Positions 10,945-62,532 of a DNA stretch of 64,000 nt are shown piece by piece (positions within the stretch are counted from its first letter, which is position 1; each line of letters begins with the position of its first letter). A program made the position numbers and the translations under genes. The notes below the pieces were generated by a model that did not search any database, was not told the origin of the DNA, and saw nothing but the letters and a program-made list of their open reading frames with translations. The DNA comes from a virus (Duplodnaviria > Heunggongvirae > Uroviricota > Caudoviricetes): positions 1,687-65,686 of the IMG/VR virus record IMGVR_UViG_3300029705_000054; one strand, written 5' to 3'.

Positions 10945-11340
10945 TCACCATATTTTCCTACATCCTTTAAAATCCCATCTTCCATTTTCATCTGCCTGAA
11001 CTGCCGCTGTTACCGCATTCCAAATATTCTTCATATAACAAATGCAATCAGTAGGAACCTAAGTATTTAATACAGGTTTTAACAATCGAATATTTTCTTT
11101 TTCTCTTGTCTTAATATCGATTCTATTCCATGACGGATACTCTTCTAATAAATAACAATGAAGCCCAACTTTTAAATCATTCAATCTACCCAATATCCAA
11201 TATAATTTATTTTTCTTATATTTATTCTCATCTTGTTTTATTTTAGCTAAATGTCCCCATGTTCTATTTTCCAACTATTCACTCTGTCCCACATAGTAAA
11301 CTCTTCCCATATCATCAGCAATTACATATACTCCCCTCAA
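10945..11340 (-). CDS. GIY-YIG homing endonuclease with 2 in-frame TAG codons. Start uncertain, possibly TTG
   Basis: Motif GVYVIADDMGRVYYVGQSE-Q-LENRTWGH (GIY..YVG..R..H). Confidence 0.5.
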
Positions 11341-12131
11341 AACTCAAACCCTCCAATCTTCTTTATCGGCGAAGCCGCAGGGGTGTCGGGGCGAAGCCCT
11401 GACTCGCCGCGAGGCGAAATGGAAACTTCATTATTATTATTCTAGTTATTATTGTTATTATAGTTATTATTATTGTGGAAACTTTGGAAACTTGGAAACG
11501 TTTCTAAACTTTCTTCTTCTTTCTTAATATTTCCAGAATTTTCAGAAACTTTTTCTATACTTTCCTCATTTTTTGGAAACTTTCCATTATTTCCAGAATT
11601 TTCGGAAACTTTCTTTAATTTTCCTTCATTATCTAACAACTCTGGAAACTGTGTACGAATGGTAGACATTTTCTTTGAAATAGCGGGCGGCTGAACACCT
11701 AGCTCACGCGCAATCGCCGCCTGTGTCATACCCCTATTATACATATCTGCAATTGGCTTTAGCGCGTCTCTTGTTGCAGCGACCTTAGCATCATATTTAT
11801 CTTGATTCTTTTTAGTCGTAACCTTATATCCTTCAACAAAGCCTTCAATAATATCATCGTCACTACTAATATCACCTGTTAATACATATTCAATAAAACT
11901 AATAGCTAATTCTCCAGCTTGTACAGGATCTTTCTCATATCTCTTTTTTATCTGTGACAACATAGTCTGATATACGTTACCAAAATCTCTTACAGGATTA
12001 TTCTTAAATTCTTTAATCATTATCCGATACCTCCGATTCCTTATTTTAAACCTAAGATAATTTGCGCATAGCCTCTTGTAACTCAAGACTATCTTCAAAT
12101 ACATAATTATCAAAATAAGGTTTCTTCTCAT
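11337..12131 (-). CDS. sigma-70 region-4-like HTH protein with internal KVSENSGN repeats and an Asn-rich tail. One in-frame TAG
   Basis: HTH MTQAAIARELGVQPPAISKKM. Two copies of IEKVSENSGN. The NNNNYNNNNN-Q-NNNN tail runs on to a TGA. Confidence 0.45.
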
Positions 12132-12183
12132 CAGGTATCACTCTAATAATCTTAAAACCCAACTTGCGTAATTCGTACGCCAT
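12046..12183 (-). CDS. small protein (~46 aa) with one in-frame TAG
   Basis: MAYELRKLGFKIIRV... Short, no recognisable domain. Confidence 0.3.
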
Positions 12184-12208
12184 TTTTCGAGTGTAAATCA
12201 CTCTTTCT

Positions 12209-12406
12209 TTAATTTGACCCATTTCCGTTTACTCGGCGCAAATAGTTCTCTAATTGCTGCTTCACCCAAATAGCAGGAGCATCTCTATTGATAAACTTAT
12301 AAAGCTAATCAGGATTATCTAATTTTGCCTCTTTCGCAATCAACTTATACGTATAACCTTTTGCGCGCATCTCCTTTAACTAAAATATTATTTCTTCACG
12401 AGTCAT
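12209..12406 (-). CDS. small HTH protein (65 aa) with 2 in-frame TAG codons
   Basis: MTREEIIF-Q-LKEMRAKGYTYKLIAKEAKLDNPD-Q-LYKFI. RBS aaaggagttagtaATG with a -10-like tataat upstream. Confidence 0.4.
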
Positions 12407-12663
12407 TACTAACTCCTTTCACTATTATATAAAAATTAAGGTAGTAATTGTATCTATTTTTGTCCAAAATTTTTTCCATAATACTACCTTAATTTGCCAA
12501 TTTTTCGACGATATACTCTTTTCTATATTTTCCTTATCGCATCATCTTTAATAGTTTTGCAACAATCTGTTGTCATGCCGCCTTTTATCAAAAGCAAGTT
12601 CAATTAAAATCGTAGCAAAATCGTGTTGGTTCATGCGCCAATCTGCACCCTTAGCAGCTTACA

Positions 12664-13071
12664 TCAAAAGTTGGCGCCACTTTCAACTTCGCTATTATAA
12701 TGCAACGTTCTTAATAACGAACGCAATCTTGAAGTACGTGAAACAGACTGCTTTAACTCATCAATGCGCGCCATTACTGTATCAAGCTTCTCTTCAAGCT
12801 GATCTACTCTTGCTGAAATATCCACTTGTAAAGCGCTAACAGAATCTGCCTTAGCACTTATATCTCCACAGTAGCCTATACTTATTGGCTTTTCATAACT
12901 AGTTGCCATTGCATAAGTATTAGCACTATCATATCCTACTATAGAAGATAAAGCATCTTGATCTATCACGCAATTATTAGCGCTAAAACTCAATTCCCCA
13001 GGTCCAAGAGTTATTTTTCTATCAAAAGAATCTCCAAAATAAGCTTCACCTGTTTTTGCCCAATTACTCAT
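12664..13071 (-). CDS. hypothetical coiled-coil protein (135 aa)
   Basis: ORF with ATGA overlap to the upstream gene. Stop is TGA. Confidence 0.45.
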   Translation of the reverse strand: MSNWAKTGEAYFGDSFDRKITLGPGELSFSANNCVIDQDALSSIVGYDSANTYAMATSYEKPISIGYCGDISAKADSVSALQVDISARVDQLEEKLDTVMARIDELKQSVSRTSRLRSLLRTLHYNSEVESGANF

Positions 13072-13547
13072 TTTACACTCCTTTCATCACAAAAGCCGAA
13101 ATAAACCATGTGATTCATTAATCCTAAATCTTTTATTACTGCGCCGGCCGCACCCTCTGGTAACTTATAGTCAAGAAAAATTTTATTAGCATAATTCTTC
13201 TTTTCTCTATTTGTTAACTCTTTAATCTTTGCTTTACCATACTAATAAACCAATAGTTCATCATCATTATCAAAATACACTTTAATCACACCAACATTCT
13301 CTTGACTACTATCATATTTTGTAATTTTAATATTAGCATCTCCATGAGCTTTAATACATAGTGTCGTTAATTTAACTAAATAAGGGCAATATTCATCCAT
13401 TACCATAATATTCCTTGTAGGTGTGTAAGGCGCCGAATCATCACCTAATTTTGCCTATAGGCGCCGATTCTTAATTAACATACGTCCATAGTCAAATCCA
13501 ATAAATATTAATCCAGCTATTAAAATAATTAATCCAATTATTTCCAC
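13068..13547 (-). CDS. membrane-anchored protein (N-terminal transmembrane helix) with GTG start and 2 in-frame TAG codons
   Basis: RBS aaaggagaaagatacGTG. TM segment EIIGLIILIAGLIFIGF. Confidence 0.4.
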
Positions 13548-15178: not shown

Positions 15179-15195
15179 AGAAAGGAGGTTAAAAA

Positions 15196-16994: not shown

Positions 16995-17825
16995 ATGACA
17001 AATAATTATTGTATTTATATGCACAAAAATAAGGTTAATGGTAAGGTTTATATTGGATAGACAAATTAGAAACCTGAATATCGTTGGGGAGACAATGGAA
17101 AACGATATGAAAACTGTCCTCATTTTTTTCACGCAATTAATAAATATGGCTGGGACTAGTTTGAGCATATTATTTTAGAAACAAATTTAACTTTAAACTA
17201 GGCTAATGAACGAGAAGCTTATTGGATAAAACATTATAATTCAACTAATAAAGAAAAAGGATATAATATTCAAGCAGGCGGTTTAAATAGAAATGTTTCA
17301 AATGACACTAGACAAAAACTAAGTGAGCATGCTAAAGCTCTTTGGCAAGAAGATTCTCATCGTGAAAAGATGTCACAATTAATGAAAAATAAGTGGTAGG
17401 ATCCGGAGTATATTGAAAAACAAAGAGTTGCTCGGGAAACTAGACACTGGGAAATGTCAGAAGAGGGGAGAAAAAGTATCAGTGAAACTCGTAAAGCCTA
17501 TATTACTAAACATGGAACTCCTACACAAGGAAAAGGACATAGCGAAGAAGCTAAAGAAAAAATTCGACAAGCTAAACTTGGAGAAAAAAATCCAATGTAT
17601 GGAAAAACTACTTCTGATTATCAAAAGCAAAGAGCTAAAGAGTGCCAAAGTAAAAAGATTTAGTGTGTTGAAACTGGAGAAATATTTTCTTCTCGAAAAG
17701 AAGCAGCTGCATGGGCGGGACTCAAAACTTCAACAGGTATCTTAGATTATTTAGCAGGTAGAAAAAAGAGCGCAGGAAAACATCCTATTACAGGAGAAAA
17801 ACTTCATTGGAAAAATATTGATTGA
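16995..17825 (+). CDS. free-standing GIY-YIG homing endonuclease. Reading it requires translating 6 in-frame TAG codons as Gln
   Basis: Readable as NGKVYIG-Q-TN-Q-..GWD-Q-FEHIILE..LN-Q-ANEREAYW..KKI-Q-CVETGEIFSS. Each TAG sits where GIY-YIG families usually have Gln. Confidence 0.6.
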
Positions 17826-22979: not shown

Positions 22980-23070
22980 GCAGGTCTGGCGAAGAGGTAA
23001 ACGCACCCGCGATTGGAACGGCGGGAAACATACTCCATTGTCGTAGGTTCGAATCCTACGACCTGCTCCA
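22980..23070 (+). tRNA. tRNA-like gene (91 nt) with a perfect 7-bp acceptor stem, T-arm and CCA but an irregular anticodon arm
   Basis: gcaggtc..gtagg ttcgaat cctac gacctgc t cca. The region between the D-arm and T-arm does not form a canonical 5-7-5 anticodon arm. Confidence 0.35.
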
Positions 23071-25236: not shown

Positions 25237-25924
25237 ATAAGAAGGAGTAATATGAATAGTAAAGATAAAGGCAATATTGGTGAGGCAGTTGTACTTGCTG
25301 AATTTGTTAAAAATAACATTTAGGTAGCAATCCCTTTTGGAGATAATGCTCGTTATGATTTGATAGCAGAGTTTAATGGAAAATTAAATCGTATTCAAGT
25401 AAAGTATTGTAATCAACAAATTACTGAAAATAATTCTATTGCCTGTCCTTGTGCAAGCAGTACAAACCATACTACCAATAAACATTATAGCACTTACGAG
25501 AATGACATAGATTATTTTTGTTTTTATATCGTAGAATGGAATGAAATTCTTATTCTGCCAATTGAAGAAATTGGTACTAAAAAAGTAATTACTTTTAGAC
25601 AAGATCCTCCAAAAAATAATCAAACTAAAGGGATAAATTTGGTAGAAAATTATCGATTAATTGATTTTCTAAAAAATTTATGATATAATATATATGTAAG
25701 AAATAAAGCGATGCAATATAAACTCCTGACCTGAGTTTCCATCAACAAATTCTCGATTCAAAATTGCCCGAAAGGGGTCGCTAATCGTAATAACATTAAC
25801 TCCGTAGTGAAACGGTAACTTAGGTTGTTCACAAATCTTGTACAAGATTAAAGGAGGAAGGTTGAGTAATCGCCTTTGGAATAGTGCAAATCACTCCTAT
25901 TAGTTAATGTAATTAAGATATTAT

Positions 25925-25996
25925 TGGGGTGTAGCCAAGTGGCAAGGCATCAGACTTTGACTCTGACACCCGCTGGTTCAAATCCAGCCACCCCAG
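25925..25996 (+). tRNA. tRNA-Gln (anticodon TTG) with a U1-A72 pair and G73. No encoded CCA
   Basis: tggggtg..tcaga ctttgac tctga..gctgg ttcaaat ccagc cacccca g. Preceded by a class-B promoter and a ~230-nt structured leader. Confidence 0.6.
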
Positions 25997-26081
25997 GTCG
26001 CACTTAATCAACTACCTCCACGTGGTGTGCGATGGGTTAAGCTAAAAGTTGATAATAAGTATAAAAAGGAGCTATTTAAAT

Positions 26082-26723
26082 ATGGCATACATTTATCAAA
26101 TTACCAATGATATAAATGGTAAAATATACATTGGTAAAACAGAAAAGTCTATAGAAAAACGTTGGAAAGAGCATTGTAGTGATTATCAAAAGGAAAGATG
26201 CAAGGATCGTCCTTTATATCGAGCAATAAACAAATATGGAATTGAACATTTTCATATAGAATTGCTTGAAGAAACAGATAATCCTTCTGAAAGAGAAATC
26301 TTTTGGATTGAGAAAAAACAATCATTTAAAAATGGTTATAATGCTACTTTAGGAGGAGATGGAAAACGTTATTTAGATTATGATTTAATCTATTCCACTT
26401 ATGAAGTTTTGCAAAATGCAACAGAAGTGGCAAAAAAATTAAATATTTCAGTAGATAGCGTATATATTGTTATTCATCAACGAGGAGGCGTATTAAAAAC
26501 TGCTCAAACAATTAATAAAGAGTTGTTTAGCAAAGCTGTAAAAATGTTTGATAAAAAAACTAATGAATATATTCAAAGTTTTTCTTCTTTAACAGATGCT
26601 TCTCAGTATTTAATAGATAATAATTTAACATCTTCAGTGAAAGTAAAAGGTATTTCAACGCACATTCGAGAGTGTGCAAATGGAATTAGAAAATCTGCTT
26701 ATGGTTTCATTTGGAAATGGTAG
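26082..26723 (+). CDS. GIY-YIG homing endonuclease (no internal TAG)
   Basis: MAYIYQITNDINGKIYIGKTEKSIEKRWKEH and a C-terminal NUMOD-like region. Confidence 0.65.
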   Translation: MAYIYQITNDINGKIYIGKTEKSIEKRWKEHCSDYQKERCKDRPLYRAINKYGIEHFHIELLEETDNPSEREIFWIEKKQSFKNGYNATLGGDGKRYLDYDLIYSTYEVLQNATEVAKKLNISVDSVYIVIHQRGGVLKTAQTINKELFSKAVKMFDKKTNEYIQSFSSLTDASQYLIDNNLTSSVKVKGISTHIRECANGIRKSAYGFIWKW

Positions 26724-26904
26724 GCTGATTAAAATATAACCGTTAACACGGATTAGTGACTAAACTACTCCCGACTCAGATCAAGGTGCGGTTCACCGCG
26801 ATATGGTAACGAGGTATGGAGCAATAGCGGAAAACGGTATATAAAGAAGCGAAGTAAGTCACCTTCAGTTGGCGCTACTGAAGTAAACCTCACAGGCGCA
26901 ATAT

Positions 26905-42101: not shown

Positions 42102-42206
42102 AAAGGTCAAAATAAATTAAAATAATCTCCTTTATTTTCATATTTTTATAGATAAATAGCTTGCCGCTAACTACTATAAAATTTGAGAATAAAGGAGATT
42201 ATACAT

Positions 42207-46458: not shown

Positions 46459-46972
46459 ATATCATATATACACAGACGGAAGTGCAAGATTTAATCCGGG
46501 CCCAGGTGGCTGGGGAATGATCGTGATGAATGAAAATGAAACTGAGATTATTTTCACTGAGCACGACACTGAAGATCATACAACCAATAACCGTATGGAG
46601 TTAAAGGCAATGATTTGCGCCCTTGGATATGTAGAGTCTCATCCAAATGACCAGTTTATTATTTATTCTGATAGCGCTTATGTTGTCAATAGTTGCAACT
46701 CTTGGATGCGGACATGGGCGGCTAATGGATGGCGTAACTCAAAAAAGCAAGAAGTAGAAAATATCGATTTGATGAAAGCAATATGGAGTTACATTTCGCG
46801 CCCATTTTTCAACGCAGAAGTTCACAAATGCGACGGGCACTCAGGTGATATAGGTAATGAATTAGCAGATGCCTTAGCTACTGGCAATCATAAGAAATAT
46901 AAAGAGCTTATTGAATATTGGTTTAAACCAGATGACGATCCACTTAGACAATCAATTGATTTCTTTATTTGA
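46451..46972 (+). CDS. rnhA: ribonuclease H (RNase HI family), TTG start
   Basis: YTDGSARFNPGPGGWG..NNRMELKA..YSDSAYVV...GHSGDIGNELADALA (DEDD catalytic residues). Confidence 0.65.
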   Translation: MAKYHIYTDGSARFNPGPGGWGMIVMNENETEIIFTEHDTEDHTTNNRMELKAMICALGYVESHPNDQFIIYSDSAYVVNSCNSWMRTWAANGWRNSKKQEVENIDLMKAIWSYISRPFFNAEVHKCDGHSGDIGNELADALATGNHKKYKELIEYWFKPDDDPLRQSIDFFI

Positions 46973-46997
46973 CAAAACTAAAAAATTTGTATATAAT
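46969..46997 (+). promoter_or_regulatory. sigma-70-type promoter (TTGACA, 17-bp spacer, TATAAT) that drives the suppressor tRNA
   Basis: ttgacaaaactaaaaaatttgtatataat, then a ~110-nt structured leader and the tRNA. Confidence 0.6.
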
Positions 46998-47107: not shown

Positions 47108-47182
47108 TGGGGAGTCGTCGAAAGGTCAAGACCGTGGTCTCTAAAACCACAGACGTAGGTTCGATTCCTACCTCCCCTGCCA
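47108..47182 (+). tRNA. amber suppressor tRNA with anticodon CTA and a tRNA-Gln-like architecture (U1, G73, 3-bp D-stem with large D-loop)
   Basis: tggggag tc gtc gaaaggtcaa gac c gtggt ctctaaa accac agac gtagg ttcgatt cctac ctcccct g cca. Closely parallels the tRNA-Gln(TTG) at 25925. A strong hairpin terminator follows (47190..47218). Confidence 0.7.
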
Positions 47183-49761: not shown

Positions 49762-52104
49762 ATGGATAATAATAAACAAATAAACATATGTGATGAATTA
49801 TCAAATAACTTTATAGATTTTAGTTATGAAGCCAATTCATGTCGTGCTTTTGCTGACGCAAGAGACGGCTTAAAACCAGGTCAACGCGCTTGTCTTTGGG
49901 AAATGTATCATAAAGGATATCTTTCTTCTAAACCAACAGTAAAAGGCGCAAAAGTAGCTGGCGCAGTATCGGGTAACTGGTGGCCGCACGGAGATGTAGC
50001 TATCTATGAAACTTTTACTCGTATGTCTCAGCCATGGATTAATAATGTTCCAGAAGTAGACTGGAAAGGAAATAATGGTTCTCAAATTATTCCTGACTCA
50101 GCCGCTTCTTCAAGGTATACAGAAACTCGTCTTTCAAAAGCAACTGAAGAGGGTATGTTCCATGCTATTAAAAAGCGAGTAGTAAAAATGATTCCCAACT
50201 ATTCTGAAGACGATGAATGGCCAGAGGTTCTTCCTGCGATTTTCCCTCGCTTAATGGTAAATGGATGTCAAGGAATAGGAAGCACAATAGCAAACGTATG
50301 GTTGCCGCATAACTTAACTGATATAGGAAATGTTATTCTTAACTATATTGAAACTAACACTGTTGATTTTACAGGCTTAGCTCCAGATTTTCCTACGGGA
50401 TGTCAGATAATTAATAAAAACGATTTAGCGCCTATTTATGCAACAGGCAAAGGCAAAGTCACACTTAGGGCAAGAGCAGATATAGTAAAAGACCATATCT
50501 ATTTTAGAGAACTTCCTTATCAGGTGTATGTTGAGCCTCTTATTGAAAAAATTAAAGAGCTTGCATCAAAAGGCGAAATCACTGGCGTAGATGCGGTTTA
50601 TAATAGAAGTAGTAAAAAGGGTATTGAAATAGATGTAGAATGTGGTGAAAATCCCGATGCAGTATTAAAACAGCTGTATTCTAAGACTGATTTACAAAAA
50701 TCATATAGCGCAAACCAATGGGCGCTTGTGGGTAAAACTCCAAGACTTCTTACTCTTAAAGACTATTGTGAGATTTATGTAGACCATAATTTACTTTGTA
50801 TTCAAAATGAAGCACAGTTTGATTTGGAAAAGGCGCAAGATAGACTTCATATCGTTGAAGGACTTCTTCATGCATTGGAAGATATCGATAACATTATCGC
50901 GCTCATTAAGACATCTGCAAGTGCGGCGGCCGCTAAGGATGCGTTAATCGCCACCTATAAGTTCTCTGAAGCACAAGCAAAAGCTATCGTAGATATGAAA
51001 CTTGGTAAGCTCGCTGGACTTGAAAAGGTTGAGCTGAATCAAGAGGCAAACGAACTCCACAAAGAAGTTGAGGAATTAAATACCCTCTTCCTTAACGAAA
51101 CCAAGCAGCGTGAAGTATTGCGCGAACGCCTTACCGCATTCATTAAGAAATATGGTGACTCACGCAGAACTGGTCTTGAGCAGATCGAGCTTCCCAAGGT
51201 AGAGAAGGAAATCGAAACCGTAGTACCTGAAGACTGCGTAGTAATAGCGACACAAAATGGCGATATTAAGAGAGTGCCCGCCGCATCTTTTAAAACGCAA
51301 AAGCGCAACGGCAAAGGCGTAAAGACAACAGATGACGCAATCCTTGACATGATTTCTACCAACACTGTCGATACTTTAATGTTCTTTACTGATAAAGGTA
51401 AAATGTATCGTCTATTGGTAGATAAAGTTCCTACTGGCACTAATGCTTCGAAGGGCGGACGCATCGGCGCCTTGATTAATATAGAAGCAGATGAAAAAGT
51501 AGTAGCTATGACTTCACTATATCGCAAGAGTCAAGCAGAATATGTTATCTTTATTACAAAGCAGGGACTTTTCAAAAAGACAAAGTTAGAAGAATATCTC
51601 CAAACAAAACGAGCAACAGGTATTACCGCAATTAAGTTTAAGGAAGGTGATTCACTTGCTACTGTTACTTTTGCTAATGAAGAAGATTTTATCATTCTTA
51701 CAAAACAAGGAATGAGTATTCGCTTTGAAACGAAAGAGATTGCTCCTATTGGGCGCGTAACCTCTGGTGTAAAGAGCATTAAATTAAACGAGGGTGATGA
51801 GGTTTTAACTGGTTTGCCTATTAAGCATAAGACTGATACTCTTGCAACATTTAGCGCGAATGGTATGGGGCGCAAGACCTTGCTTGAAGAATTCCCTGTC
51901 CAGGGTAGAGGTGGCAAGGGCCTAAAGATAGGAAGTGGAGACCTGGCTGGCGCAGCGTTGATTAGCGATGAAGATAATCTTCTCATAGTCGGTTCGCCAA
52001 ATAGCATCTGCATATCAGCCACTGAAATTCCGCTCTTAGCGCGCACGGCGCAAGGTAATATAATGATTAAAAATAGTACCATAAAAGGAGTAATTAAAAT
52101 ATGA
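49762..52104 (+). CDS. type II DNA topoisomerase DNA-cleavage subunit (GyrA/ParC/T4 gp52-like)
   Basis: N-terminal DGLKPGQRACLWEMY signature of GyrA/ParC, 780 aa. Confidence 0.7.
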   Translation: MDNNKQINICDELSNNFIDFSYEANSCRAFADARDGLKPGQRACLWEMYHKGYLSSKPTVKGAKVAGAVSGNWWPHGDVAIYETFTRMSQPWINNVPEVDWKGNNGSQIIPDSAASSRYTETRLSKATEEGMFHAIKKRVVKMIPNYSEDDEWPEVLPAIFPRLMVNGCQGIGSTIANVWLPHNLTDIGNVILNYIETNTVDFTGLAPDFPTGCQIINKNDLAPIYATGKGKVTLRARADIVKDHIYFRELPYQVYVEPLIEKIKELASKGEITGVDAVYNRSSKKGIEIDVECGENPDAVLKQLYSKTDLQKSYSANQWALVGKTPRLLTLKDYCEIYVDHNLLCIQNEAQFDLEKAQDRLHIVEGLLHALEDIDNIIALIKTSASAAAAKDALIATYKFSEAQAKAIVDMKLGKLAGLEKVELNQEANELHKEVEELNTLFLNETKQREVLRERLTAFIKKYGDSRRTGLEQIELPKVEKEIETVVPEDCVVIATQNGDIKRVPAASFKTQKRNGKGVKTTDDAILDMISTNTVDTLMFFTDKGKMYRLLVDKVPTGTNASKGGRIGALINIEADEKVVAMTSLYRKSQAEYVIFITKQGLFKKTKLEEYLQTKRATGITAIKFKEGDSLATVTFANEEDFIILTKQGMSIRFETKEIAPIGRVTSGVKSIKLNEGDEVLTGLPIKHKTDTLATFSANGMGRKTLLEEFPVQGRGGKGLKIGSGDLAGAALISDEDNLLIVGSPNSICISATEIPLLARTAQGNIMIKNSTIKGVIKI

Positions 52105-52949
52105 TAACTGAAAATCAACAATATATGGAAACTTTGGGAGCGGAATTTTCCGCTCCCGATATCCGAGATTATCGTATTGATAGTTCTAGTCTACAATCAG
52201 AATTTCCAGCTGAATTTGAATTACCAATGCCACCTGTTAAGAATCAAGGATCAGTTGGCTCTTGCGTAGCTCATTCTATTGCTTTAGTAGCAGAATATTT
52301 TAATCAACAACAATATGGCATCGCAAATGAAATAAGCGTTGGCTATATTTATGGCAATAGAGTGCCTCCATTAAATAAAACTGCTGGCATGATTACGCGT
52401 TTTGCAATTTCCAATTTTTGCGCAGATGGCGCTCCTACATTCAATGATTTTCCATTACATTGTGAAGTCCCAGATATTATTACCGCAGTAGAAAAGGCTA
52501 AAGACTCATTGGACGCACTCGCGCGCCAATTCCGTTTTACCTCTTATATTAAAGTATCAAAAGAAAAAGAAATAAAAACAGCATTAATGCAAGGCTATCC
52601 TGTTATTATTGCAGTGGACTGGTATAATGATATGAAAGTCAAAGATGGAGTTATAACCTCTAATTTCACCCAAAAGTCTGGCGGCCATGCGATGGTGCTT
52701 TATGGTTGGGATGAAAACGGTTGGAAAATTCAAAATTCTTGGAGTGTATTTTGGGGTAATCAAGGTCGTGCCGTTTGGCCCTATGATTTTAAGTTACGTG
52801 AAGCTTATGCTATTGTTGATACTGAGACCACTCCATTAAATATTAAAAAGCCGTTTAAAACCCAAAATAAGTTTTTACGCACTTTAGTTAAAATTGCCAA
52901 TAAGATATATAGTGTCTTTTATAGCTTATGGTATAGAATAAAACATTAA
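52101..52949 (+). CDS. papain-like (C1 family) cysteine peptidase
   Basis: Catalytic-Cys motif NQGSVGSCVAHS, His in GGHAMVLYGW, Asn in NSWSVFWG. ATGA overlap with the topoisomerase stop. Confidence 0.55.
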   Translation: MITENQQYMETLGAEFSAPDIRDYRIDSSSLQSEFPAEFELPMPPVKNQGSVGSCVAHSIALVAEYFNQQQYGIANEISVGYIYGNRVPPLNKTAGMITRFAISNFCADGAPTFNDFPLHCEVPDIITAVEKAKDSLDALARQFRFTSYIKVSKEKEIKTALMQGYPVIIAVDWYNDMKVKDGVITSNFTQKSGGHAMVLYGWDENGWKIQNSWSVFWGNQGRAVWPYDFKLREAYAIVDTETTPLNIKKPFKTQNKFLRTLVKIANKIYSVFYSLWYRIKH

Positions 52950-55048: not shown

Positions 55049-55296
55049 AAGTTAACATAAACTTAAAAGATTCAAATAGTCATGCGCCAATGAACCGAGA
55101 GCAGCGTAAGGCAATGCATAAGCGCCTTATGCCTAAAATTAAGCGCATTGTAGAACTCGAAAAGCAAATAAAAGCAGGCATTGATAAAGACGCAGCTGAA
55201 ACTGAAATGACCCAAATCATTGAAAGCTGCACAATGATTGAGATGTTTGCCATCGAAGATTATATCTATAACAAGAATCTACTTGACAATCATTAA
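55045..55296 (+). CDS. hypothetical basic protein (83 aa)
   Basis: ATGA overlap with the ligase stop. Confidence 0.45.
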   Translation: MKVNINLKDSNSHAPMNREQRKAMHKRLMPKIKRIVELEKQIKAGIDKDAAETEMTQIIESCTMIEMFAIEDYIYNKNLLDNH

Positions 55297-55375
55297 AATT
55301 TATTATATAATTATAATAACAATAGCAGAGAATAAAAAACTGCAAATATTAAGATATAAAAGGAGAATTAAGGCA

Positions 55376-55678: not shown

Positions 55679-56662
55679 ATGATAGTATTATGCGTAATAT
55701 CAATTCTTCTTGGTGTGAGCGGTCTTGCTTATGGAGTATGGGTTAAAGCCACATCTGTAAAAGCTAATCGCTATACAGCAGAAGAAAATTAGAAACTAGA
55801 AGAACTCAATTAGTCATTACAAGCAACTCGCAAAAGCTTAGAAGCACAAAATAACTTATTGATAAAATCTAACAATGAAATTTCTCAAAAATATGAAGAG
55901 AACTGTAAAAAAACAAAAAATTCTTACGACGAATTAAATCAATTAACTCAATAGAAATTGTTGTTAATAAATGAAATTCAAAATAAGCAAATTGAAAAAG
56001 CAGGAATTGAGGCGCAAATTGCTGCTTTCAGCAGCTCTGTAGAGACAATGTCAGGTGACTTAAAGGCAGCTGCGCTCGCCTCCTTTGAACAATATTGTGA
56101 GACTCTTGATTATGAATATCAAAAACGCGAACAAGAGTTCGATATTGAAGTGGACACTCTTGATCAATTATATTTTGACAGACTTCAAGAACTTGATGCA
56201 AGAGAAAAAGGATTAATTGAAGAGCGACGTCAAGATATTGACACTCTTGTGCAATTATTTTATGATAAGCAATAGTCAATGTCTAAAGAATTACAAGAAG
56301 AAGAGGCGGCAATGCGCGCCGACCTAGACTCAATCCGCAAAGAGCTAGAAAAAATTCGTGCAACCAAGGCCGCCACAATGGAAGCACAACTTCGTGAAGA
56401 AGAAATTAAAAATCAAGCAACATTTTATACTCTTCAACTTAATGAGGCAGATAAGCGAGACGTGGCATATCTTCAAAGTATTGAATATAATCTACGCGAA
56501 GCAAGACCTTTGCGTATGCTTATATGGACTACTTTCTATAGAGATAAAGTCAATGACCTTGCGGCGCGCGTAGGTGCGTTGGGCGCCAGTGGAATATATA
56601 AGATAACACACATTGACTCTGGTATATCTTATATCGGACAAGCGGTCAATGTTGGCCGATGA
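55679..56662 (+). CDS. membrane-anchored coiled-coil protein whose C-terminus carries the first half of a GIY-YIG (T5orf172-like) motif. 4 in-frame TAG codons. Interrupted downstream by an endonuclease insertion
   Basis: TM helix MIVLCVISILLGVSGLAYGVWV, long coiled coil, then ..SGIYKITHIDSGISYIGQAVNVGR followed by TGA. Confidence 0.4.
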
Positions 56663-56860
56663 AAAACTTTACCTAGTAGCTGCTAGGGGTCGCTAACTTA
56701 TAGTGGCTAACGAGGAAAATATTTTTTAATAAAATACAATCTCGTGGGAAATTTTGATTAATCCATCTTCCATAAAAATAATATATATATGAACAACTGA
56801 TGAATATAACATTATAGGAGGCATAAAATGCAAAAATTATTTTTATCTAAGATGACACCA

Positions 56861-57775
56861 AATGACATTATTAGCGGAATTTATAAAATTAATTACCCAA
56901 ACGGAAAAGCTTACATTGGATAGGCTCAAAATATTCGAGCTAGACTTATGGAGCATAATTCTTATAGTCAAGCTGGACATGGTTCAAGAGAACTTCTATT
57001 GTGTGAGCAAAAAATGAAAGAATACAATATTATTATTGATGAGTTTGAATTACTTGAAACAGTTTCTGACTTATCGTTATTAGATGATAAAGAAAGATAT
57101 TGGATTTCCTTTTATAAAACCTATATTAAAGATGGACACGGATACAATAAAACCCGAGGAGGAGACGCTTCGGGGAAACGAGGGACTGAAAATCCTAATG
57201 CAGCTTTAAATGAAAATCAACTTAAAGAAATAATTGATTTGTTAATTAATCATACAGAGTTTTCTTTAACAGAGATAGGTAATAAATATGGAGTAGGACA
57301 AGGTACTATATTAAATATTTCAACAGGTAGAACCTATGTTAATCCAAACTTAGTTTACCCATTAAGAAAAAATAATCATGACTCAGCGTGTAAGACAGAA
57401 GTTTTAGATTATTTTTCCTCCGAAGAAGAGCTAGTTAATTTAAAAGAAGATTTATTGTATCGTTGGGATTTACCAATTCAAGGTGGTATAGATATTAAAT
57501 ATAATATTCCAATCAGGGTATTAAGAGACATTAATAATGGAAGAAAATTTGCAGAAATAGGGAAATATAGTTATCCTATTAGAGCAAAAAACATTCGCAA
57601 TAATCATAATTTAACTTTAGAGGATGTTTAGAATATTTTAGATCTGTTACGTAATACTAATACTTCTATGGATAATATTGGTGCACAATATAACATAGGG
57701 CGTTCAACTATAAGTAATATTAATTTAGGAAAAACTTATATTCTTAAAGATTATGATTATCCTGCTAGAAAATAA
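56861..57775 (+). CDS. GIY-YIG homing endonuclease (inserted element). One in-frame TAG. There is an apparent +1 frameshift relative to an RBS-proximal ATG at 56827, in a TTTT run
   Basis: ..YKINYPNGKAYIG-Q-AQNIRARLMEHN. Removing one T from ggaatttt (56876..56881) would give MQKLFLSKMTPNDIISGIYKINYPNGKAYIGQ, a canonical GIY start served by RBS taggagg. Confidence 0.5.
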
Positions 57776-57933
57776 TGGATTAATTGAAAAACCTGTATCG
57801 ACTATTCCCTAGGCCTTATGGGCGGGGAAGTAGGGCTATTATTAGCACATAGTAGTATTTTAGGAAACGAAGTACTTTAAATGCCGAAATGGTTTCCTGT
57901 AATAAAAATTACAGTAAAAAATAGTCAAAATTA

Positions 57934-58161
57934 ATGCAACATTAAAGAGCGCTGGGTAACGCATGTCAAATGCAGCTTAGGTATCGATACCCCTGTAACA
58001 AGTCAACTTTATGCATTTACAAAAGAAAAGGGTATTGATAACTTTACTTTTGAAATACTTGAAAAATGTAATATCAATGAATTAAATGAAAAGGAGAAGT
58101 TTTATATTGACCTCTATCAGACATATGATTTTGGACTGAATAAAACTCGCGGAAATAGTTA
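57934..58161 (+). pseudogene. 3' fragment of the interrupted GIY-YIG domain (..IKERWVTH..YAF..NFTFEILE..) with an internal frameshift near 58085
   Basis: Frame 1 reads CNIKERWVTHVKCSLGIDTPVTSQLYAFTKEKGIDNFTFEILEKCNINEIK*. The rest (KEKFYIDLYQTYDFGLNKTRGNS*) is in frame 2. Confidence 0.4.
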
Positions 58162-58611
58162 AATGTATATTAAACTAGAATGGACAGATGAAATTGGTGA
58201 TATTGAAGAAAAAGAGTTTTGGTCTTGGGGAGACTGTTTTAGCTTTGTTTTTAAAATGTACGACCAAAAATGGAAGAAAATACGCAAGGAGTTAAAATTG
58301 AAATGAAAGTAGATATTTGGATAACAACAGACGAAGGCGCAGAGTATCATGCTGAAAACCTAAGCTGGAACGAAGCTTGCGCCATAATAGTAGATAAGCA
58401 TAACCAAGAAGAACTGTTTAATCTACTTAATAATGAAGTTATTAAAGATTATATAAAGGATGTGGCAAATGAAAGTAACAAGAATTGAAATCTCTCTTGA
58501 ATGGGAGGATAGCGGCGAATTTGAGCATGAAACTTATGAAGACTCTTTTGATGATGCAATTCGCGTACTAAAGAAAATGAAAAAGAAATATCAAGATGGA
58601 ATAAAGGAGGA

Positions 58612-59773: not shown

Positions 59774-60007
59774 TGAGAGATTTTATAATTTTAGCAATTT
59801 CTTATATACCTTTTCCTGTTTTAGAGGAGTATCTTAAAACAAGAGGAATAACTTGCTATAATGAAGATGGAAGCTCTCGTATGACTTATGAAGTAGTTAA
59901 TGATATAATGCAGCTTCTACTTGACTAAATAAAAAATTTTTGTTATAATAAAGATATTGGACAAAAATATTAAATAAGTAAAATAATTAATAAACAAGGA
60001 GAAAGAA

Positions 60008-60973
60008 ATGAAGTACACAAAGAATTCAATTACAATTCAAGGAAGAGTTTACAGTTTTGGAGAAGCAAATGGAAGAAATATGCTTGAAGTAAAGACTGTA
60101 AAGAATGAAAAGTCTGAGAACTTCGGTAAGGAGTTTATTGCAGGAACTATCCAGGTTGCAGTAGATGAAGCAGGTCTTAATGTAATTCCTGTTCACTACA
60201 CTTTTGTAACCCCCACCACAAAGAATGGCGGCACCAACAATACCTTTACCGCTCTTAAGGCACTTATCGATGGCGGTAAGACTTGGGTAAAGGACGGCAA
60301 GGATGCTGCACCTATGGTTAAACTCGAGCCTTCTTTTGCGCTCAATGATTTCTATATCAATGAGAATGGTGAAGATAAACTTGTCTCTCAGGTAATGCAC
60401 GAGGGTGGTTTTGCAACAATCGTAAACACTCTTCCTGAGAACGAAGCAGAGAGAACTTATTTCCGCTGTGATATGGTTATCACAAATGTAACTCATGTAG
60501 ATGAAGATAAAGAGAAAAACATTGATGAACATGTTGCTCTTCGCGGTGCAGTATTTAATTTCCGTAAAGAACTTCTTCCTCTTACCTTTACAGTTAAGAA
60601 TCCTAACGGTATGAATTACTTTGAAGAACTTGGCGTGTCTGGTAGCGAGCCTGTTTACACTTGGGTTGAAGGTATTATTAACTGCAATACTGTTAAGAAC
60701 GAGGTCAAGGAAGAGACTGCATTTGGCGGCGAGTCTGTAAGAACCTTTGAGCGCAAGACTAAAGAATGGCTTGTTGTAAGAGCTTCGCAGAATCCTTATG
60801 ACTTTGGTGAAGAGGGTATTCTTACTGGAGAAGAGCTTACAAAGGCTATGCAGGATAGACAGGTTAAGCTTGCCGAGGAAAAGAAGAGAAGTGAAGAGTA
60901 TAAGGCACAGAGAAATAATCCTGTAGCAGCGCCCGCCGCTCCTCAGGCAAAAGCTGGTGGCTTTAACTTCTGA
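60008..60973 (+). CDS. possible single-stranded DNA-binding protein (OB-fold), tentative
   Basis: Highly expressed-looking gene (strong RBS). ITIQGRVYSFGE pattern and a C-terminal Ala/Pro-rich flexible tail. Architecture only. Confidence 0.3.
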   Translation: MKYTKNSITIQGRVYSFGEANGRNMLEVKTVKNEKSENFGKEFIAGTIQVAVDEAGLNVIPVHYTFVTPTTKNGGTNNTFTALKALIDGGKTWVKDGKDAAPMVKLEPSFALNDFYINENGEDKLVSQVMHEGGFATIVNTLPENEAERTYFRCDMVITNVTHVDEDKEKNIDEHVALRGAVFNFRKELLPLTFTVKNPNGMNYFEELGVSGSEPVYTWVEGIINCNTVKNEVKEETAFGGESVRTFERKTKEWLVVRASQNPYDFGEEGILTGEELTKAMQDRQVKLAEEKKRSEEYKAQRNNPVAAPAAPQAKAGGFNF

Positions 60974-60992
60974 TAAAAAGAGGTAAGTGAAA

Positions 60993-61556
60993 ATGGCAGA
61001 TTTTAATTTACTTGATATTTAGCCTCATTAGGTTTCAAGAGATATGCGCGGTTATTGCGTCTTCTTCTATGGAGACGCAAAGACCGGTAAAACTACTACC
61101 GCGACTAAATTCCCTAATCATCTTTTGGCGGCTTTTGAAAAAGGATATAATGCAATTCCCGGCGCCATGGCACAACCTATTAATAGTTGGTCTGAGTTTA
61201 AAAAATTCTTGCGCCAGTTAAAGAATGAACAGGTTAAAGCTAGATTCGAAACTATTATCCTTGATACAGCTGATATAGCCTATGACTATTGTGAGAAATA
61301 TATTTGCGCCAATGCAGTTCGTCCAGATGGCTCTATAGGCGTCGATAGCATCGGTGACATTGGTTACGGAAAGGGCTTCAAAATGGCAGCGCAAGAGTTT
61401 GATAGCGCGCTTCGTTCAATCCTTCAATTAGGATACGGCTTAGTAATTATTTCTCACGCGCAAGACAAAACCTTTAAGGATCAAAATGGCAATGAGTATA
61501 ATCAGATTGTTCCTACTCTTGATAATAAACCTCGTAATATTGTAAACCGTATGGCT
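60993..61556 (+). CDS. RecA-fold AAA_24-like ATPase, putative exon 1 (2 in-frame TAG codons at the N-terminus). It may be spliced to 62533..63021
   Basis: MADFNLLDI-Q-PH-Q-VSRDMRGYCVFFYGDAKTGKTT (Walker A), IILDTAD (Walker B), VIISHAQ. Strong RBS aaaaagaggtaagtgaaaATG. Confidence 0.5.
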
Positions 61557-62532
61557 TAACATTTTTATTTCATATTTTCGCTCTCTTAAAGAAGGAGTTG
61601 AAAGTTTTTTGAGAAAATATCCTTTAAATTTAACAAACATTAAAATAGACCCTCATGAAAAATATTATTGGCTTGGATTTTTAGCTGGAGATGGAAATGT
61701 AGCTAAAAATGAAGCCAGAGTAAGAGTTGAGTTAAAAGATATAGATAGAGAGCAGCTTGAAAATTTACAAGCATTCTTTGAATCTAATGCGCCCATTACA
61801 GAGCGTACTAATAACACTGGATGTCATGCTTTAACTGTATCTATAAACTCGGCAGAGTTAAAACGTTATTTAGCACAATATAATATAGTACCTGCAAAAA
61901 CCTCTATTTTTAGTATTCCCCTTGAAAACATTCCTAATGAATATATTTATGATTTTGCAAGAGGATTGCTAGATGCAGATGGTAGTATTCACATTAGAGA
62001 AGATAGAAACAATATTCCTAGTTTAAGTTTTGTCAGTCAAACTGAGATCTGCACAAAACAAATGCTAGAAATTTTAGAGTTTGATAATAAAGTAAGTCCT
62101 TGTGGAACCTCTGCTTATCAAATTCATAAAGAAGGCGCTGCAGTTGTACAAATTTTAAATAAAATTTATGAACATTCAACCGAGGCCTCTCGGTTGAGAC
62201 GAAAATATGAAATATATAAGGCCCTTAATGGAGCAATCCATTAAGCAAATCATGTGAATTGCTGGAAACCCCTTAGAGTTAATCAAACTACAGCATAAGA
62301 ATGAAAGAAATCTAAGTGCGAATGTTAAAAATTGATTAAATTGGGCAATCAGCAGCCAAGCTCCGAATAGGAGAAGGTTCAACGACTATCCCACTGGAGG
62401 ATGAAATTTCCTCAACAGGAGTAGGGCTTTTATAATAATATAAAAGTAGGTGAAAATCCTTTAAATCGAAGTGCATGACATCCACCGTTTAAAATGGATG
62501 AAGATATAGTCTATTCCCATTAAAATATCTTG
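61557..62532 (+). mobile_element. group I intron (candidate, phage IA-type) carrying a LAGLIDADG endonuclease ORF
   Basis: Conserved core elements seen directly: P-like gaattgctggaaacc (62256), Q aatcagcag (62346), R gttcaacgactat (62377), S aagatatagtct (62501). Confidence 0.55.
61609..62244 (+). CDS. LAGLIDADG homing endonuclease (double-motif), intron-encoded
   Basis: Motifs LGFLAGDGNV and LLDADGSIHI. Confidence 0.65.
   Translation: MRKYPLNLTNIKIDPHEKYYWLGFLAGDGNVAKNEARVRVELKDIDREQLENLQAFFESNAPITERTNNTGCHALTVSINSAELKRYLAQYNIVPAKTSIFSIPLENIPNEYIYDFARGLLDADGSIHIREDRNNIPSLSFVSQTEICTKQMLEILEFDNKVSPCGTSAYQIHKEGAAVVQILNKIYEHSTEASRLRRKYEIYKALNGAIH

What the first reader, a model, noticed from the sequence alone, without database searches (positions are those of the whole stretch)
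10945..62244. Heavy load of homing endonucleases (5 GIY-YIG, 1 HNH, 1 LAGLIDADG), most of them gated by amber codons
Seven endonuclease genes or fragments occur in 64 kb: GIY-YIG at 10945c, 16995, 26082 and 56861 plus the split domain at 55679/57934, HNH at 37892, and LAGLIDADG at 61609. Five of them contain in-frame TAGs. The 16995 gene has six, each at a Gln-typical position. Tying endonuclease expression to the suppressor tRNA would restrict these selfish nucleases to late infection or to co-infection settings.
Basis: partly seen in the sequence, partly recalled or inferred. Interest (0 to 1): 0.5.

Follow-up and report, generated by a model that had tools for sequence, protein, structure and literature searches.

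The report
Amber-coded homing endonucleases in recoded phage
A gut phage that reads the stop codon TAG as glutamine carries eight selfish DNA-cutting genes, most of them written with TAG just like its DNA-packaging genes, so they should be translatable only when the phage's own suppressor tRNA is present; the idea was already published, and this is a well-documented new example.

Summary
Pfam confirms all seven endonuclease genes or fragments. I also found an eighth, a PD-(D/E)XK homing endonuclease at 25252-25683, and two introns that carry two of the genes.

The phage uses code 15 (TAG = Gln). It has a conserved suppressor tRNA(CUA), no gene ends in TAG, and its terminase and portal genes, just upstream of the window, hold 8 and 6 TAGs.

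TAG use is bimodal:
- **TAG-free genes:** 68 genes (gyrase, ligase, sigma factor, early small genes) have 0 TAG but 135 CAG.
- **Endonucleases:** 8.7 TAG per 1000 codons, against 1.4 in all other window genes.
- **Relatives:** about 6-fold enrichment (8.4 vs 1.4).
- **Packaging genes:** endonucleases are indistinguishable from them (TAG/Gln 0.22 vs 0.25).

Four endonucleases are absent from at least one close relative. TAG positions turn over quickly between orthologous copies.

So dependence on the suppressor is a sound inference, but it is not specific to endonucleases. The suppressor tRNA has a perfect sigma-70 consensus promoter, which weakens the "late only" reading. Borges et al. (2021 preprint) already proposed this mechanism for an intron endonuclease in TGA-recoded phages. 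I rate it a new member of a known kind, of moderate interest.

The parts
10945..11340 (-). Free-standing GIY-YIG nuclease, 131 aa, catalytic domain only. TAG at codons 22 and 94.
   Evidence: Pfam PF01541, E 1e-6. TAG coordinates 11275 and 11059. No homologue in relatives L066, L073 or L074.
16995..17825 (+). Free-standing GIY-YIG + NUMOD3 homing endonuclease, 276 aa, six in-frame TAG.
   Evidence: Pfam. 563 homologues. Absent in L066, where w16806 to w17818 corresponds to 63 nt. Present at the same locus in L073 (81% aa) and L074 (69% aa), with different TAG positions.
25252..25683 (+). PD-(D/E)XK (PDDEXK_5) homing endonuclease, 143 aa, TAG at codon 24. It lies 15 nt after a tRNA-Thr gene.
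   Evidence: Pfam PF11645, E 3e-33, full length. phrog_5018. The site is empty in L066. Paralogues follow tRNA genes in L066, L039 and L031.
26082..26732 (+). Free-standing GIY-YIG + NUMOD1 endonuclease in the tRNA array. Its only TAG is two codons before the TAA stop, so it does not gate.
   Evidence: Pfam PF01541 E 1e-11, SegE_GIY-YIG, NUMOD1. TAG at 26721.
37892..38518 (+). HNH_3 endonuclease, 208 aa. TAG at codon 68, upstream of the DHKNHN motif.
   Evidence: Pfam PF13392, E 3e-10. Orthologue present in L025 (7065-7838) with no TAG.
55679..56646 (+). Exon 1 of a 397-aa gene: TM helix, coiled coil and the first half of a GIY-YIG domain. Four TAG.
   Evidence: Uninterrupted 397-aa orthologues in L001-L003. 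TAG at codons 38, 45 and 92 conserved in all four sequences.
56647..57936 (+). 1290-nt intron, group I-like, absent from relatives. The 5' exon ends in U and the intron ends in G.
   Evidence: Junction mapped against L001-L003. Homologous intron in the gyrB gene of L025. Eight homologous 3' halves fold into 38 pairs, 12 with compensatory changes. Rfam RF00028 does not match.
56828..57775 (+). Intron-encoded GIY-YIG homing endonuclease, 315 aa. TAG at codon 32 (the Q of YIGQ) and codon 268.
   Evidence: Pfam PF01541, E 6e-7. AGGAGG lies 8 nt before the ATG. TAG coordinates.
57937..58162 (+). Exon 2, the second half of the GIY-YIG domain.
   Evidence: The spliced product is 397 aa and reads ..YIGQAVNIKERWVTH... 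Pfam and PHROG hits span the junction.
61044..61556 (+). Exon 1 of the AAA_24 ATPase gene. No TAG.
   Evidence: Pfam PF13479, E 1e-34. Junction mapped against L002.
61557..62550 (+). 994-nt group I intron. U before the 5' splice site, G as the last intron base.
   Evidence: Rfam RF00028 scores 78.2 bits over 62177-62532. The intron is exactly absent in L002, L003 and L018, and not found in L001 or L010. Junction.
61609..62244 (+). Intron-encoded LAGLIDADG endonuclease, 211 aa. No TAG.
   Evidence: Pfam PF14528, E 3e-8, and PF00961.
62551..63021 (+). Exon 2 of the AAA_24 gene. The spliced product is 327 aa.
47108..47182 (+). Suppressor tRNA with anticodon CUA and a Gln-like acceptor stem (U1, G2-G5, G73). 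It decodes TAG.
   Evidence: ARAGORN. Rfam 58.9 bits. Alignment with the phage tRNA-Gln(UUG). Conserved in L025, L040, L036 and L031.
46969..46997 (+). Perfect sigma-70 consensus promoter (TTGACA-17-TATAAT), 110 nt upstream of the suppressor tRNA.
   Evidence: The same perfect promoter lies upstream of the suppressor tRNA in L040 and L036, and a 10/12 match in L025. This is a consensus match only.
25924..25997 (+). Phage tRNA-Gln(UUG). No tRNA-Gln(CUG) is encoded in the window.

Best explanation
The window belongs to a roughly 130-kb gut phage that uses genetic code 15 (TAG = Gln) in a gene-class-specific way.

- One class is written in standard-compatible code, with no TAG and CAG kept. It holds the early small genes behind consensus promoters and the replication and transcription genes.
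- A second class replaces about two thirds of its CAG codons with TAG. It holds terminase, portal, tail-fibre-like genes and a minus-strand regulatory block.
- The homing endonucleases are embedded among TAG-free genes, but they are written in the second, amber-containing style.

The consequence is mostly inferred. The endonucleases have no consensus sigma-70 promoter of their own nearby, so they may be co-transcribed with their neighbours. Ribosomes should stop at the first TAG, which lies before the catalytic residues in six of the eight, until the phage's Gln suppressor tRNA(CUA) is charged and competes with the host's TAG-recognising release factor. Endonuclease synthesis is therefore tied to the suppressor, as packaging-protein synthesis is.

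The pattern is best explained by differential purifying selection. TAG is purged from genes that must be translated immediately. Elsewhere it is tolerated and keeps arising, and selfish genes that the phage does not need early fall in that group. Two of the endonucleases sit in self-splicing introns, and most are recent insertions that move between related phages.
For: **Code 15**
- A suppressor tRNA(CUA) with a Gln-like acceptor stem, conserved in relatives.
- 84 genes end in TAA (54) or TGA (30), never TAG.
- A 945-aa repeat protein has TAG at the same place in two repeats.
- Terminase and portal of the same genome hold 8 and 6 TAGs.
- TAG falls at near-invariant Gln positions 22 and 25 of the GIY-YIG family.

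**Two gene classes**

| Class | TAG/Gln | CAG/Gln |
|---|---|---|
| 68 TAG-free genes | 0 | 0.39 |
| Packaging genes | 0.25 | 0.14 |
| Endonucleases | 0.22 | 0.10 |

- (TAG+CAG)/Gln is 0.33-0.39 in every class.
- Endonucleases do not differ from packaging genes (p = 0.84).

**Enrichment against neighbours**
- 8.7 against 1.4 TAG per 1000 codons in the window.
- 8.4 against 1.4 in 28 endonucleases and 948 other genes of related loci.
- In L002 a TAG-free ligase gene is split by an ORF with 5 TAG.
- In L073 and L074 the endonucleases carry 2-6 TAG among TAG-free plus-strand neighbours.

**TAG arises in place**
- Orthologous copies at the 16995 locus share 1 of 13 TAG positions.
- The flanking genes stay TAG-free over greater divergence.

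**Mobility**
- Four elements are absent from close relatives.
- The 16995 endonuclease is more conserved than its flanks (81% against 54% and 72%).

**Not pseudogenes:** 13 of 13 in-frame stops are TAG.
Against: - No expression data exist. Timing is inferred only.
- The suppressor tRNA has a perfect consensus promoter. The packaging block is also headed by such promoters. The delay may therefore be short, and the early/late labels rest on gene function and promoter matches, not on measurement.
- The LAGLIDADG gene has no TAG, and the 26082 gene has none that matters.
- 13 of 34 endonucleases in the clade are TAG-free.
- One predicted virion protein (42183-42983, phrog_2729) has no TAG.
- Gene calls in related loci were automatic. 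Single TAGs there may be start-extension artefacts.
- The related loci sampled are centred on replication genes, which inflates the contrast.
- The host and its release factors are unknown.
Confidence: 0.6

Rival explanations
1. Selected gating. Amber codons are actively maintained in the endonuclease genes, by the phage or by the selfish element, to hold back nuclease production until late. This would protect intron splicing and the phage's own replicating DNA. It is the reading of the first reader and of Borges et al.
For: - About 6-fold enrichment, repeated in relatives.
- The first TAG falls at codons 22-32 in four of the genes, before the catalytic residues.
- TAG presence persists (6, 2 and 6 TAGs) although positions change.
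- The scan found no consensus sigma-70 promoter next to the endonucleases, so control would have to be translational.
- T4 also delays I-TevI, SegB and MobE translation, by a different means (PMC2988022).
Against: - TAG frequency in endonucleases equals that of packaging genes, with no excess.
- Positions are not conserved.
- 38% of endonucleases in the clade have no TAG, including the intron-encoded LAGLIDADG here and the gyrB-intron GIY-YIG in L025.
- The early TAG positions largely coincide with the conserved Gln of the YIGQ motif.
- The suppressor tRNA appears to be early-transcribed.
Confidence: 0.2
2. Imported codon style. The endonucleases arrived recently from more heavily recoded relatives and simply still carry the donors' TAG-rich codon usage.
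For: - The endonucleases are mobile. They are absent in close relatives and more conserved than their flanks.
- More distant relatives such as L015 use TAG even in RecJ and AAA_24 genes, at 6.5 per 1000 codons.
Against: - At the 16995 locus, copies in three genomes have almost entirely different TAG positions, including CAA/TAG differences. TAGs are therefore gained and lost in place.
- Resident non-mobile genes carry conserved TAGs. Examples are the 397-aa gene in all four relatives, terminase and portal.
Confidence: 0.12
3. Decay. The TAGs are true stop codons and these are dying endonuclease pseudogenes.
For: - Homing endonuclease genes commonly degenerate after fixation (general knowledge).
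- The 10945c gene is only a 131-aa catalytic domain.
Against: - 13 of 13 in-frame stops are TAG although TAG is 22% of stop triplets out of frame, giving P of about 4e-9.
- There are no frameshifts.
- Full-length orthologues of 276-277 aa are interrupted only by TAG.
- Essential terminase and portal genes are interrupted the same way.
- TAG sits at invariant Gln positions.
Confidence: 0.03

Closest known systems
Preferentially recoded group I intron endonuclease of TGA-recoded 'Agate' phages (Borges et al., bioRxiv 10.1101/2021.08.26.457843)
   Same: - A homing endonuclease inside an otherwise standard-coded early gene carries in-frame reassigned stop codons.
- The proposed consequence is the same: no endonuclease until the suppressor acts.
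- The general picture is the same: early genes compatible with the standard code, late genes recoded.
   Different: - Here the codon is TAG read as Gln (code 15), not TGA read as Trp.
- Five nuclease families are involved: GIY-YIG, HNH, PD-(D/E)XK, a Zn-ribbon/DUF2726-like type in relatives, and LAGLIDADG in L001.
- Most are free-standing rather than intron-encoded.
- The TAG rate equals that of packaging genes, and the suppressor tRNA has an early-type consensus promoter.
Phage T4 homing endonucleases (I-TevI/II/III, Seg and Mob proteins) and their delayed translation (PMC2988022)
   Same: - A comparable load: T4 has 15 (3 intron-encoded and 12 free-standing); here 8 lie in 64 kb.
- Both have promoter-less cassettes co-transcribed with neighbours.
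- Both have intron-encoded GIY-YIG enzymes.
- Both have a GIY-YIG gene inside the tRNA cluster (SegB; PMC2330249).
- In both, translation is held back relative to transcription.
   Different: - T4 does this with RNA hairpins that hide the ribosome-binding site on early transcripts, plus late promoters.
- Here the block would be in-frame amber codons that need a phage tRNA.
- No such hairpins were sought here.
phAss-1 / proposed Phassvirus code-15 gut phages (PMC10607447; OQ749652)
   Same: - Roughly 130-136-kb gut phages with many tRNAs and tRNA-Sup(CUA).
- TAG occurs in terminase, portal and tail genes but in only about 28% of ORFs.
- A LAGLIDADG gene varies between the genomes.
   Different: - Only distant relatives: 27% aa identity on one protein and no DNA similarity.
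- That paper does not analyse endonucleases against TAG.
I-Ssp6803I, the PD-(D/E)XK homing endonuclease of a cyanobacterial tRNA-fMet group I intron (my own knowledge; Pfam PF11645)
   Same: The 25252 ORF matches the family model end to end (E 3e-33). It is associated with a tRNA gene.
   Different: Here it is free-standing, 15 nt downstream of a tRNA-Thr gene, and not inside a group I intron. It contains an amber codon.

Membership tests
GIY-YIG homing endonucleases | GIY-YIG catalytic domain above the Pfam threshold | tested here: met
   PF01541 scores 29-45 bits against a cutoff of 22.6 for 10945c, 16995, 26082 and 56828, and for the spliced 55679/57937 gene.
GIY-YIG homing endonucleases | Separate DNA-binding module (NUMOD or HTH) after the catalytic domain | tested here: inconclusive
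   NUMOD3 in 16995 and NUMOD1 in 26082. Weak HTH-type hits in 56828. None in the 131-aa 10945c protein.
GIY-YIG homing endonucleases | Presence/absence polymorphism at a fixed site in related genomes (signature of mobility) | tested here: met
   16995 is absent in L066 but present in L073 and L074, and is more conserved than its flanks. 56828 with its intron is absent in L001-L003. 10945c has no homologue in three relatives. 26082 could not be tested because no locus covers it.
GIY-YIG, HNH, LAGLIDADG and PD-(D/E)XK homing endonucleases | Site-specific cleavage of the allele that lacks the endonuclease, and homing | not testable with these tools
   Needs enzyme assays or phage crosses.
HNH homing endonuclease | HNH motif above threshold, and mobility | tested here: inconclusive
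   PF13392 scores 39.9 bits against a cutoff of 24.8. However, the gene is present at the same place in L025, so no polymorphism was seen.
LAGLIDADG homing endonuclease | LAGLIDADG domains, location in a self-splicing intron, absence from relatives | tested here: met
   PF14528 and PF00961. Rfam group I intron. The insertion 61557-62550 is absent in L002, L003 and L018.
PD-(D/E)XK homing endonuclease (PDDEXK_5) | Full-length match to PF11645, and site polymorphism | tested here: met
   115 bits against a cutoff of 26.1, covering positions 1-137 of 138. The site is empty in L066.
Group I intron (61557-62550) | Covariance-model match at or above the Rfam gathering score; U at the end of the 5' exon; G at the end of the intron; exact absence from an orthologous gene | tested here: met
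   RF00028 scores 78.2 bits against a gathering score of 50. The junction reads GCT|TAA...AAAG|GAC, and the orthologue in L002 is uninterrupted. Splicing itself was not tested.
Group I intron (56647-57936) | Covariance-model match to RF00028 | tested here: not met
   No hit even at E <= 10, either in the window or for the homologous gyrB intron of L025. The 950-nt ORF inside the intron may prevent a match.
Group I intron (56647-57936) | U|...G| boundaries, a P1 helix with a G-U pair at the splice site, and a conserved structured core | tested here: met
   The junction reads ..GCGGU|CAAUG...UUAAUG|CAAC. The guide sequence GCCG pairs with exon CGGU in both homologous introns. In the 3' half, 38 pairs are predicted and 12 have compensatory changes, enclosed by a long-range GACUAU/AUAGUC helix. 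The resemblance to the R and S core elements rests on my memory only.
Code-15 (TAG = Gln) phage | Suppressor tRNA(CUA); essential genes interrupted only by TAG; TAG at conserved Gln positions; TAG not used as a terminator | tested here: met
   (tRNA). (terminase and portal). (Gln positions 22 and 25). (54 TAA, 30 TGA, 0 TAG stops). Proteomic proof is not available.
'Preferentially recoded' gene families in the sense of Borges et al. | Higher use of the reassigned codon, relative to its synonymous codons, than in the rest of the genome | tested here: met
   TAG/Gln is 0.22 in endonucleases and 0.046 in all other window genes. There is no excess over packaging genes, where it is 0.25.

The most novel reading that the evidence does not exclude
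The amber codons may be a selected, portable 'code lock' for selfish nucleases. On this reading, endonucleases that circulate among code-15 phages keep TAG codons so that they are expressed only in cells where a suppressor tRNA is already active. That would spare intron splicing and early replication. It would also silence the nuclease after transfer into standard-code phages or hosts, so the genetic code itself would set the host range of these mobile elements. A corollary is that endonucleases and introns inserted in essential early genes would add selection to keep the suppressor tRNA.
Probability: 0.15. Interest if true: 0.6.

Novelty: new member of a known kind. Interest (0 to 1): 0.35.

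Why it matters
This case shows, with replication in related genomes, that the split between standard-coded and amber-coded genes in a recoded phage works gene by gene, not region by region. Selfish genes sitting inside or beside TAG-free essential genes carry TAG at the same rate as packaging genes. CAG and TAG trade places while the share of G-ending Gln codons stays constant.

That gives a simple numerical marker, TAG/(TAG+CAG), for which genes a recoded phage can afford to leave untranslatable at first. The marker could be applied to the many genes of unknown function in such phages.

It also matters for annotation. With the standard code, every one of these endonucleases, the terminase and the portal would be called as fragments. 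It does not change what is known about how endonucleases or recoding work.

Tried and rejected
- **DNA search in GenBank phages.** The gyrase-ligase region found nothing useful. A protein search found only phAss-1, at 27% identity.
- **Related-locus searches.** Searches with the 273-aa (16055) and 395-aa (36602) neighbours found no relatives in IMG/VR. I switched to the RNA-ligase-like gene, the 254-aa gene and the 321-aa gene.
- **Rfam on the GIY-YIG intron.** No group I match in three attempts, including on the homologous L025 intron. I could not give Rfam an ORF-deleted sequence, so the intron class rests on its boundaries, the P1 helix and covariation.
- **Iterated HMM for GIY-YIG.** It drifted into unrelated proteins. 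I replaced it with a domain-only HMM.
- **L015 8312-9142 (13 TAG).** It matches that domain HMM only over a short stretch and aligns poorly with the 16995 family. Without it, the density in relatives' endonucleases is about 6.8 per 1000 codons instead of 8.4.
- **TAGs in the AAA_24 ORF.** The two TAGs at the start (60987...) lie upstream of the likely start at 61044, where the Pfam match begins. They were not counted.
- **Pfam on terminase and portal.** No hits. PHROGs identified them.
- **Pseudogene reading.** Rejected.
- **GC content as an explanation.** Rejected, because the share of G-ending Gln codons is the same in all classes.

Full report
**What the window is**

The window is part of a large phage genome. 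It holds 19 tRNA genes by ARAGORN, 20 by Rfam, and a separate tRNA with anticodon CUA at 47108-47182. Pfam finds gyrase B and A, an NAD-dependent ligase, a sigma-70 factor, an RNA-ligase-like gene, RNase H and a denV-like glycosylase.

Close relatives (75-90% nt identity) are IMG/VR contigs of 123-135 kb. More distant relatives reach 190 kb. The only described relative is phAss-1, a code-15 gut phage, at 27% protein identity (PMC10607447).

Contigs identical to the window extend it 9 kb upstream.

**The phage reads TAG as Gln**

- The CUA tRNA shares U1, G2-G5 and G73 with the phage's own tRNA-Gln(UUG). It is conserved in four related loci.
- None of 84 curated genes ends in TAG. There are 54 TAA and 30 TGA stops.
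- ORFs broken by TAG continue in frame with unchanged coding signal.
- The 945-aa protein at 33768-36605 has a TAG at the same position in two internal repeats.
- Just upstream of the window, the portal (phrog_2739, E 2e-55) and large terminase (phrog_2) of the same genome hold 6 and 8 TAGs.
- In the 16995 protein, TAGs 22 and 25 fall on Gln positions conserved in 30 and 29 of 31 homologues.

**Check of the observation**

The TAG counts are as stated apart from details, given in the observation check. I add three things.

1. *An eighth endonuclease.* ORF 25252-25683 is a full-length PDDEXK_5 protein (E 3e-33) with a TAG at codon 24. It starts 15 nt after a tRNA-Thr gene.
2. *The LAGLIDADG gene lies in a group I intron.* Rfam scores it 78 bits. 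Comparison with the uninterrupted gene in L002 puts the intron at 61557-62550. It splits an AAA_24 gene into 61044-61556 and 62551-63021, giving a spliced product of 327 aa.
3. *The 'split domain' is a gene interrupted by a second intron.* The 397-aa gene has a TM helix, a coiled coil and a C-terminal GIY-YIG domain. The intron at 56647-57936 carries the 56828 GIY-YIG gene.
   - Three relatives have the uninterrupted 397-aa gene.
   - The boundaries follow the group I rule (U|...G|), with a GCCG guide pairing to exon CGGU.
   - A homologous intron sits in gyrB of relative L025, with the same P1 helix.
   - Eight homologous 3' halves from IMG/VR give 38 predicted pairs, 12 with compensatory changes.
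   - Rfam's group I model does not match it. I therefore call it group I-like.

**Are they insertions?**

Mostly yes.

| Element | Status in relatives |
|---|---|
| 16995 gene | Absent in L066 (63 nt between the flanking genes); present in L073 and L074 |
| 25252 gene | Absent at its site in L066 |
| Both introns with their endonucleases | Not found in L001-L003 |
| 10945c | No homologue in three relatives |
| HNH gene | Present in L025 |
| 26082 | Could not be tested |

The 16995 protein is 81% and 69% identical to its L073 and L074 orthologues. The flanking genes are only 54% and 72% identical to L073, and 36% and 60% to L074. This is the signature of horizontal spread.

Relatives carry other endonucleases at other sites:
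- a 323-aa ORF with 5 TAGs that splits the otherwise TAG-free ligase gene of L002;
- a LAGLIDADG gene before AAA_24 in L001;
- a GIY-YIG gene with 7 TAGs beside the suppressor tRNA in L025.

**TAG statistics**

In the window, endonucleases have 13 TAGs in 1500 codons and other genes have 20 in 14402 (Fisher 4e-6). Six of 7 endonuclease genes carry TAG, against 9 of 77 others (8e-5).

In related loci, with automatic gene calls, 28 endonucleases have 8.4 TAG per 1000 codons and 948 other genes have 1.4. Dropping one doubtful member gives 6.8.

The contrast is with the neighbours, not with the genome as a whole.

| Class | TAG per 1000 codons | TAG/Gln | CAG/Gln |
|---|---|---|---|
| Packaging-block genes (portal, terminase and two neighbours) | 11.2 | 0.25 | 0.14 |
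| Endonucleases | 8.7 | 0.22 | 0.10 |
| Nine other TAG-bearing genes (tail-fibre-like 29000, 33451, 33768; minus-strand genes at 9421-13547; 17822; 55679) | 8.7 | 0.23 | 0.15 |
| 68 TAG-free genes | 0 | 0 | 0.39 |

- Endonucleases and packaging genes do not differ (p = 0.84).
- (TAG+CAG)/Gln is 0.33-0.39 in every class. TAG has therefore replaced about two thirds of CAG in one class of genes and none in the other.
- All 13 in-frame stops in endonucleases are TAG. Out of frame, TAG is 22% of stop triplets, so these are not decaying genes.

**Dynamics**

- The three orthologous copies at the 16995 locus carry 6, 2 and 6 TAGs but share only one position. Several differences are CAA against TAG.
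- Their plus-strand neighbours stay TAG-free in all three genomes, apart from other endonuclease-like genes.
- In the clade, 21 of 34 endonucleases carry TAG.
- Three of the four TAGs in the 397-aa gene are conserved in all four close relatives.

**Promoters**

The window holds 14 perfect TTGACA-17-TATAAT sites. By my own estimate, far fewer than one would be expected by chance.

- Twelve lie in 258-7442, in front of small TAG-free genes.
- One lies 110 nt before the suppressor tRNA.
- One lies at 55283.
- The scan found none of these promoters next to an endonuclease gene.
- The suppressor tRNA has the same perfect promoter in L040 and L036.
- The TAG-rich packaging block is also headed by perfect sites.

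These are consensus matches, not measurements.

**Interpretation**

- *Shown:* the genes, the TAGs, the enrichment, the insertions, the two coding classes and the suppressor tRNA.
- *Inferred:* endonuclease translation depends on the suppressor, because the first TAG precedes the catalytic residues in six of eight. The pattern comes from purging TAG out of genes needed at once and tolerating it elsewhere.
- *Open:* whether this dependence is selected for the endonucleases. The equal TAG rate in packaging genes, the position turnover and the many TAG-free endonucleases favour tolerance.
- The consensus promoter on the suppressor tRNA argues that any delay is a lag in tRNA accumulation, not late transcription.

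**Comparison with what is known**

- Borges et al. reported that a group I intron endonuclease inserted in an early gene of TGA-recoded Agate phages is preferentially recoded. They proposed that in-frame stops prevent its production until late.
- T4 delays I-TevI, SegB and MobE translation by hiding the ribosome-binding site (PMC2988022).

The present case is a code-15 example with several nuclease families and a quantitative codon signature. I rate it a new member of a known kind.

Noticed in passing
window 25084-25237: A tRNA-Thr(UGU) gene with a clean cloverleaf carries a 78-nt insert in its anticodon loop (Rfam tRNA 50 bits with an 81-nt gap; ARAGORN with introns allowed). The insert is far too short for a group I intron. 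It ends in a tRNA-like T-arm plus CACCA. The PD-(D/E)XK endonuclease gene starts 15 nt downstream. Unexplained.
   Followed up: partly
window 23327-23518, 24490-24756 (Rfam hits 23362-23461 and 24491-24559): Two further tRNA-like genes are seen by Rfam or by ARAGORN's intron mode but not by default ARAGORN. They are possibly interrupted tRNA-Asn and tRNA-Gln genes, or artefacts.
   Followed up: no
window 6423-6494 and 22980-23070: ARAGORN reports two tRNAs with four-base anticodons (tcgt, tgga). Rfam scores both as tRNA (44.6 and 45.3 bits). With introns allowed, the second is called tRNA-Phe with a 3-nt insert.
   Followed up: no
L066 11070-11519; L039 1340-1798 and 3536-4036; L031 338-760: In relatives, PDDEXK_5 endonuclease genes also lie beside or between tRNA genes inside tRNA arrays. 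This suggests a family of free-standing endonucleases that target phage tRNA clusters, as T4 SegB does.
   Followed up: partly
window 258-7442, 46969-46997, 55283-55311: Fourteen perfect sigma-70 consensus promoters (TTGACA-17-TATAAT). Twelve are packed into 7 kb in front of small genes of unknown function. This looks like a classic early region read by host RNA polymerase.
   Followed up: partly
window 30765-33245: An 826-aa protein with Major Vault Protein shoulder (E 6e-26) and Vault_3 repeat domains. It has 30 CAG, 3 CAA and no TAG. It is conserved in relative L025. Function in a phage unknown.
   Followed up: no
window 55679-56646 + 57937-58162: The intron's host gene is unusual in itself. 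It encodes an N-terminal membrane helix, about 280 aa of coiled coil and a C-terminal GIY-YIG nuclease domain. It is 397 aa in four relatives, with three conserved amber codons.
   Followed up: partly
L002 3242-6159: In a close relative the NAD-dependent ligase gene is in two separately startable pieces. They flank a 323-aa ORF with repeated Zn-ribbon motifs, a nuclease-like C-terminus and 5 TAGs. A homologue of that ORF, L033 4565-5482, gave a sub-threshold DUF2726 hit. The same ORF family recurs in L033, L034 and L040, and more weakly in other loci.
   Followed up: partly
L072 1339-1695 (about 7.3-7.7 kb upstream of window position 1, minus strand): A 118-aa homing-endonuclease-like ORF (phrog_559 and phrog_9084, E 1e-27) with 2 TAGs sits between the terminase and portal genes of the same genome.
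   Followed up: partly
window 36602-37789: A 395-aa protein with a sub-threshold Hint-module match (E 3e-4) lies directly upstream of the HNH gene. The whole block 33451-37789 is missing in L025.
   Followed up: no
window 52101-52949: The papain-like (Peptidase_C1) gene between gyrase A and the ligase is replaced by an unrelated 142-aa gene in L002 and L003, and is absent in L001.
   Followed up: no
window 9421-10128 (minus strand): A 235-aa protein with an N-terminal helix-turn-helix-like stretch has the highest TAG density among non-endonuclease genes of at least 100 codons (6 TAG, 2 CAA, 0 CAG). It has no Pfam or PHROG match and no homologue in three relatives. L066 has a different 265-aa gene with 10 TAGs in the corresponding region.
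   Followed up: partly
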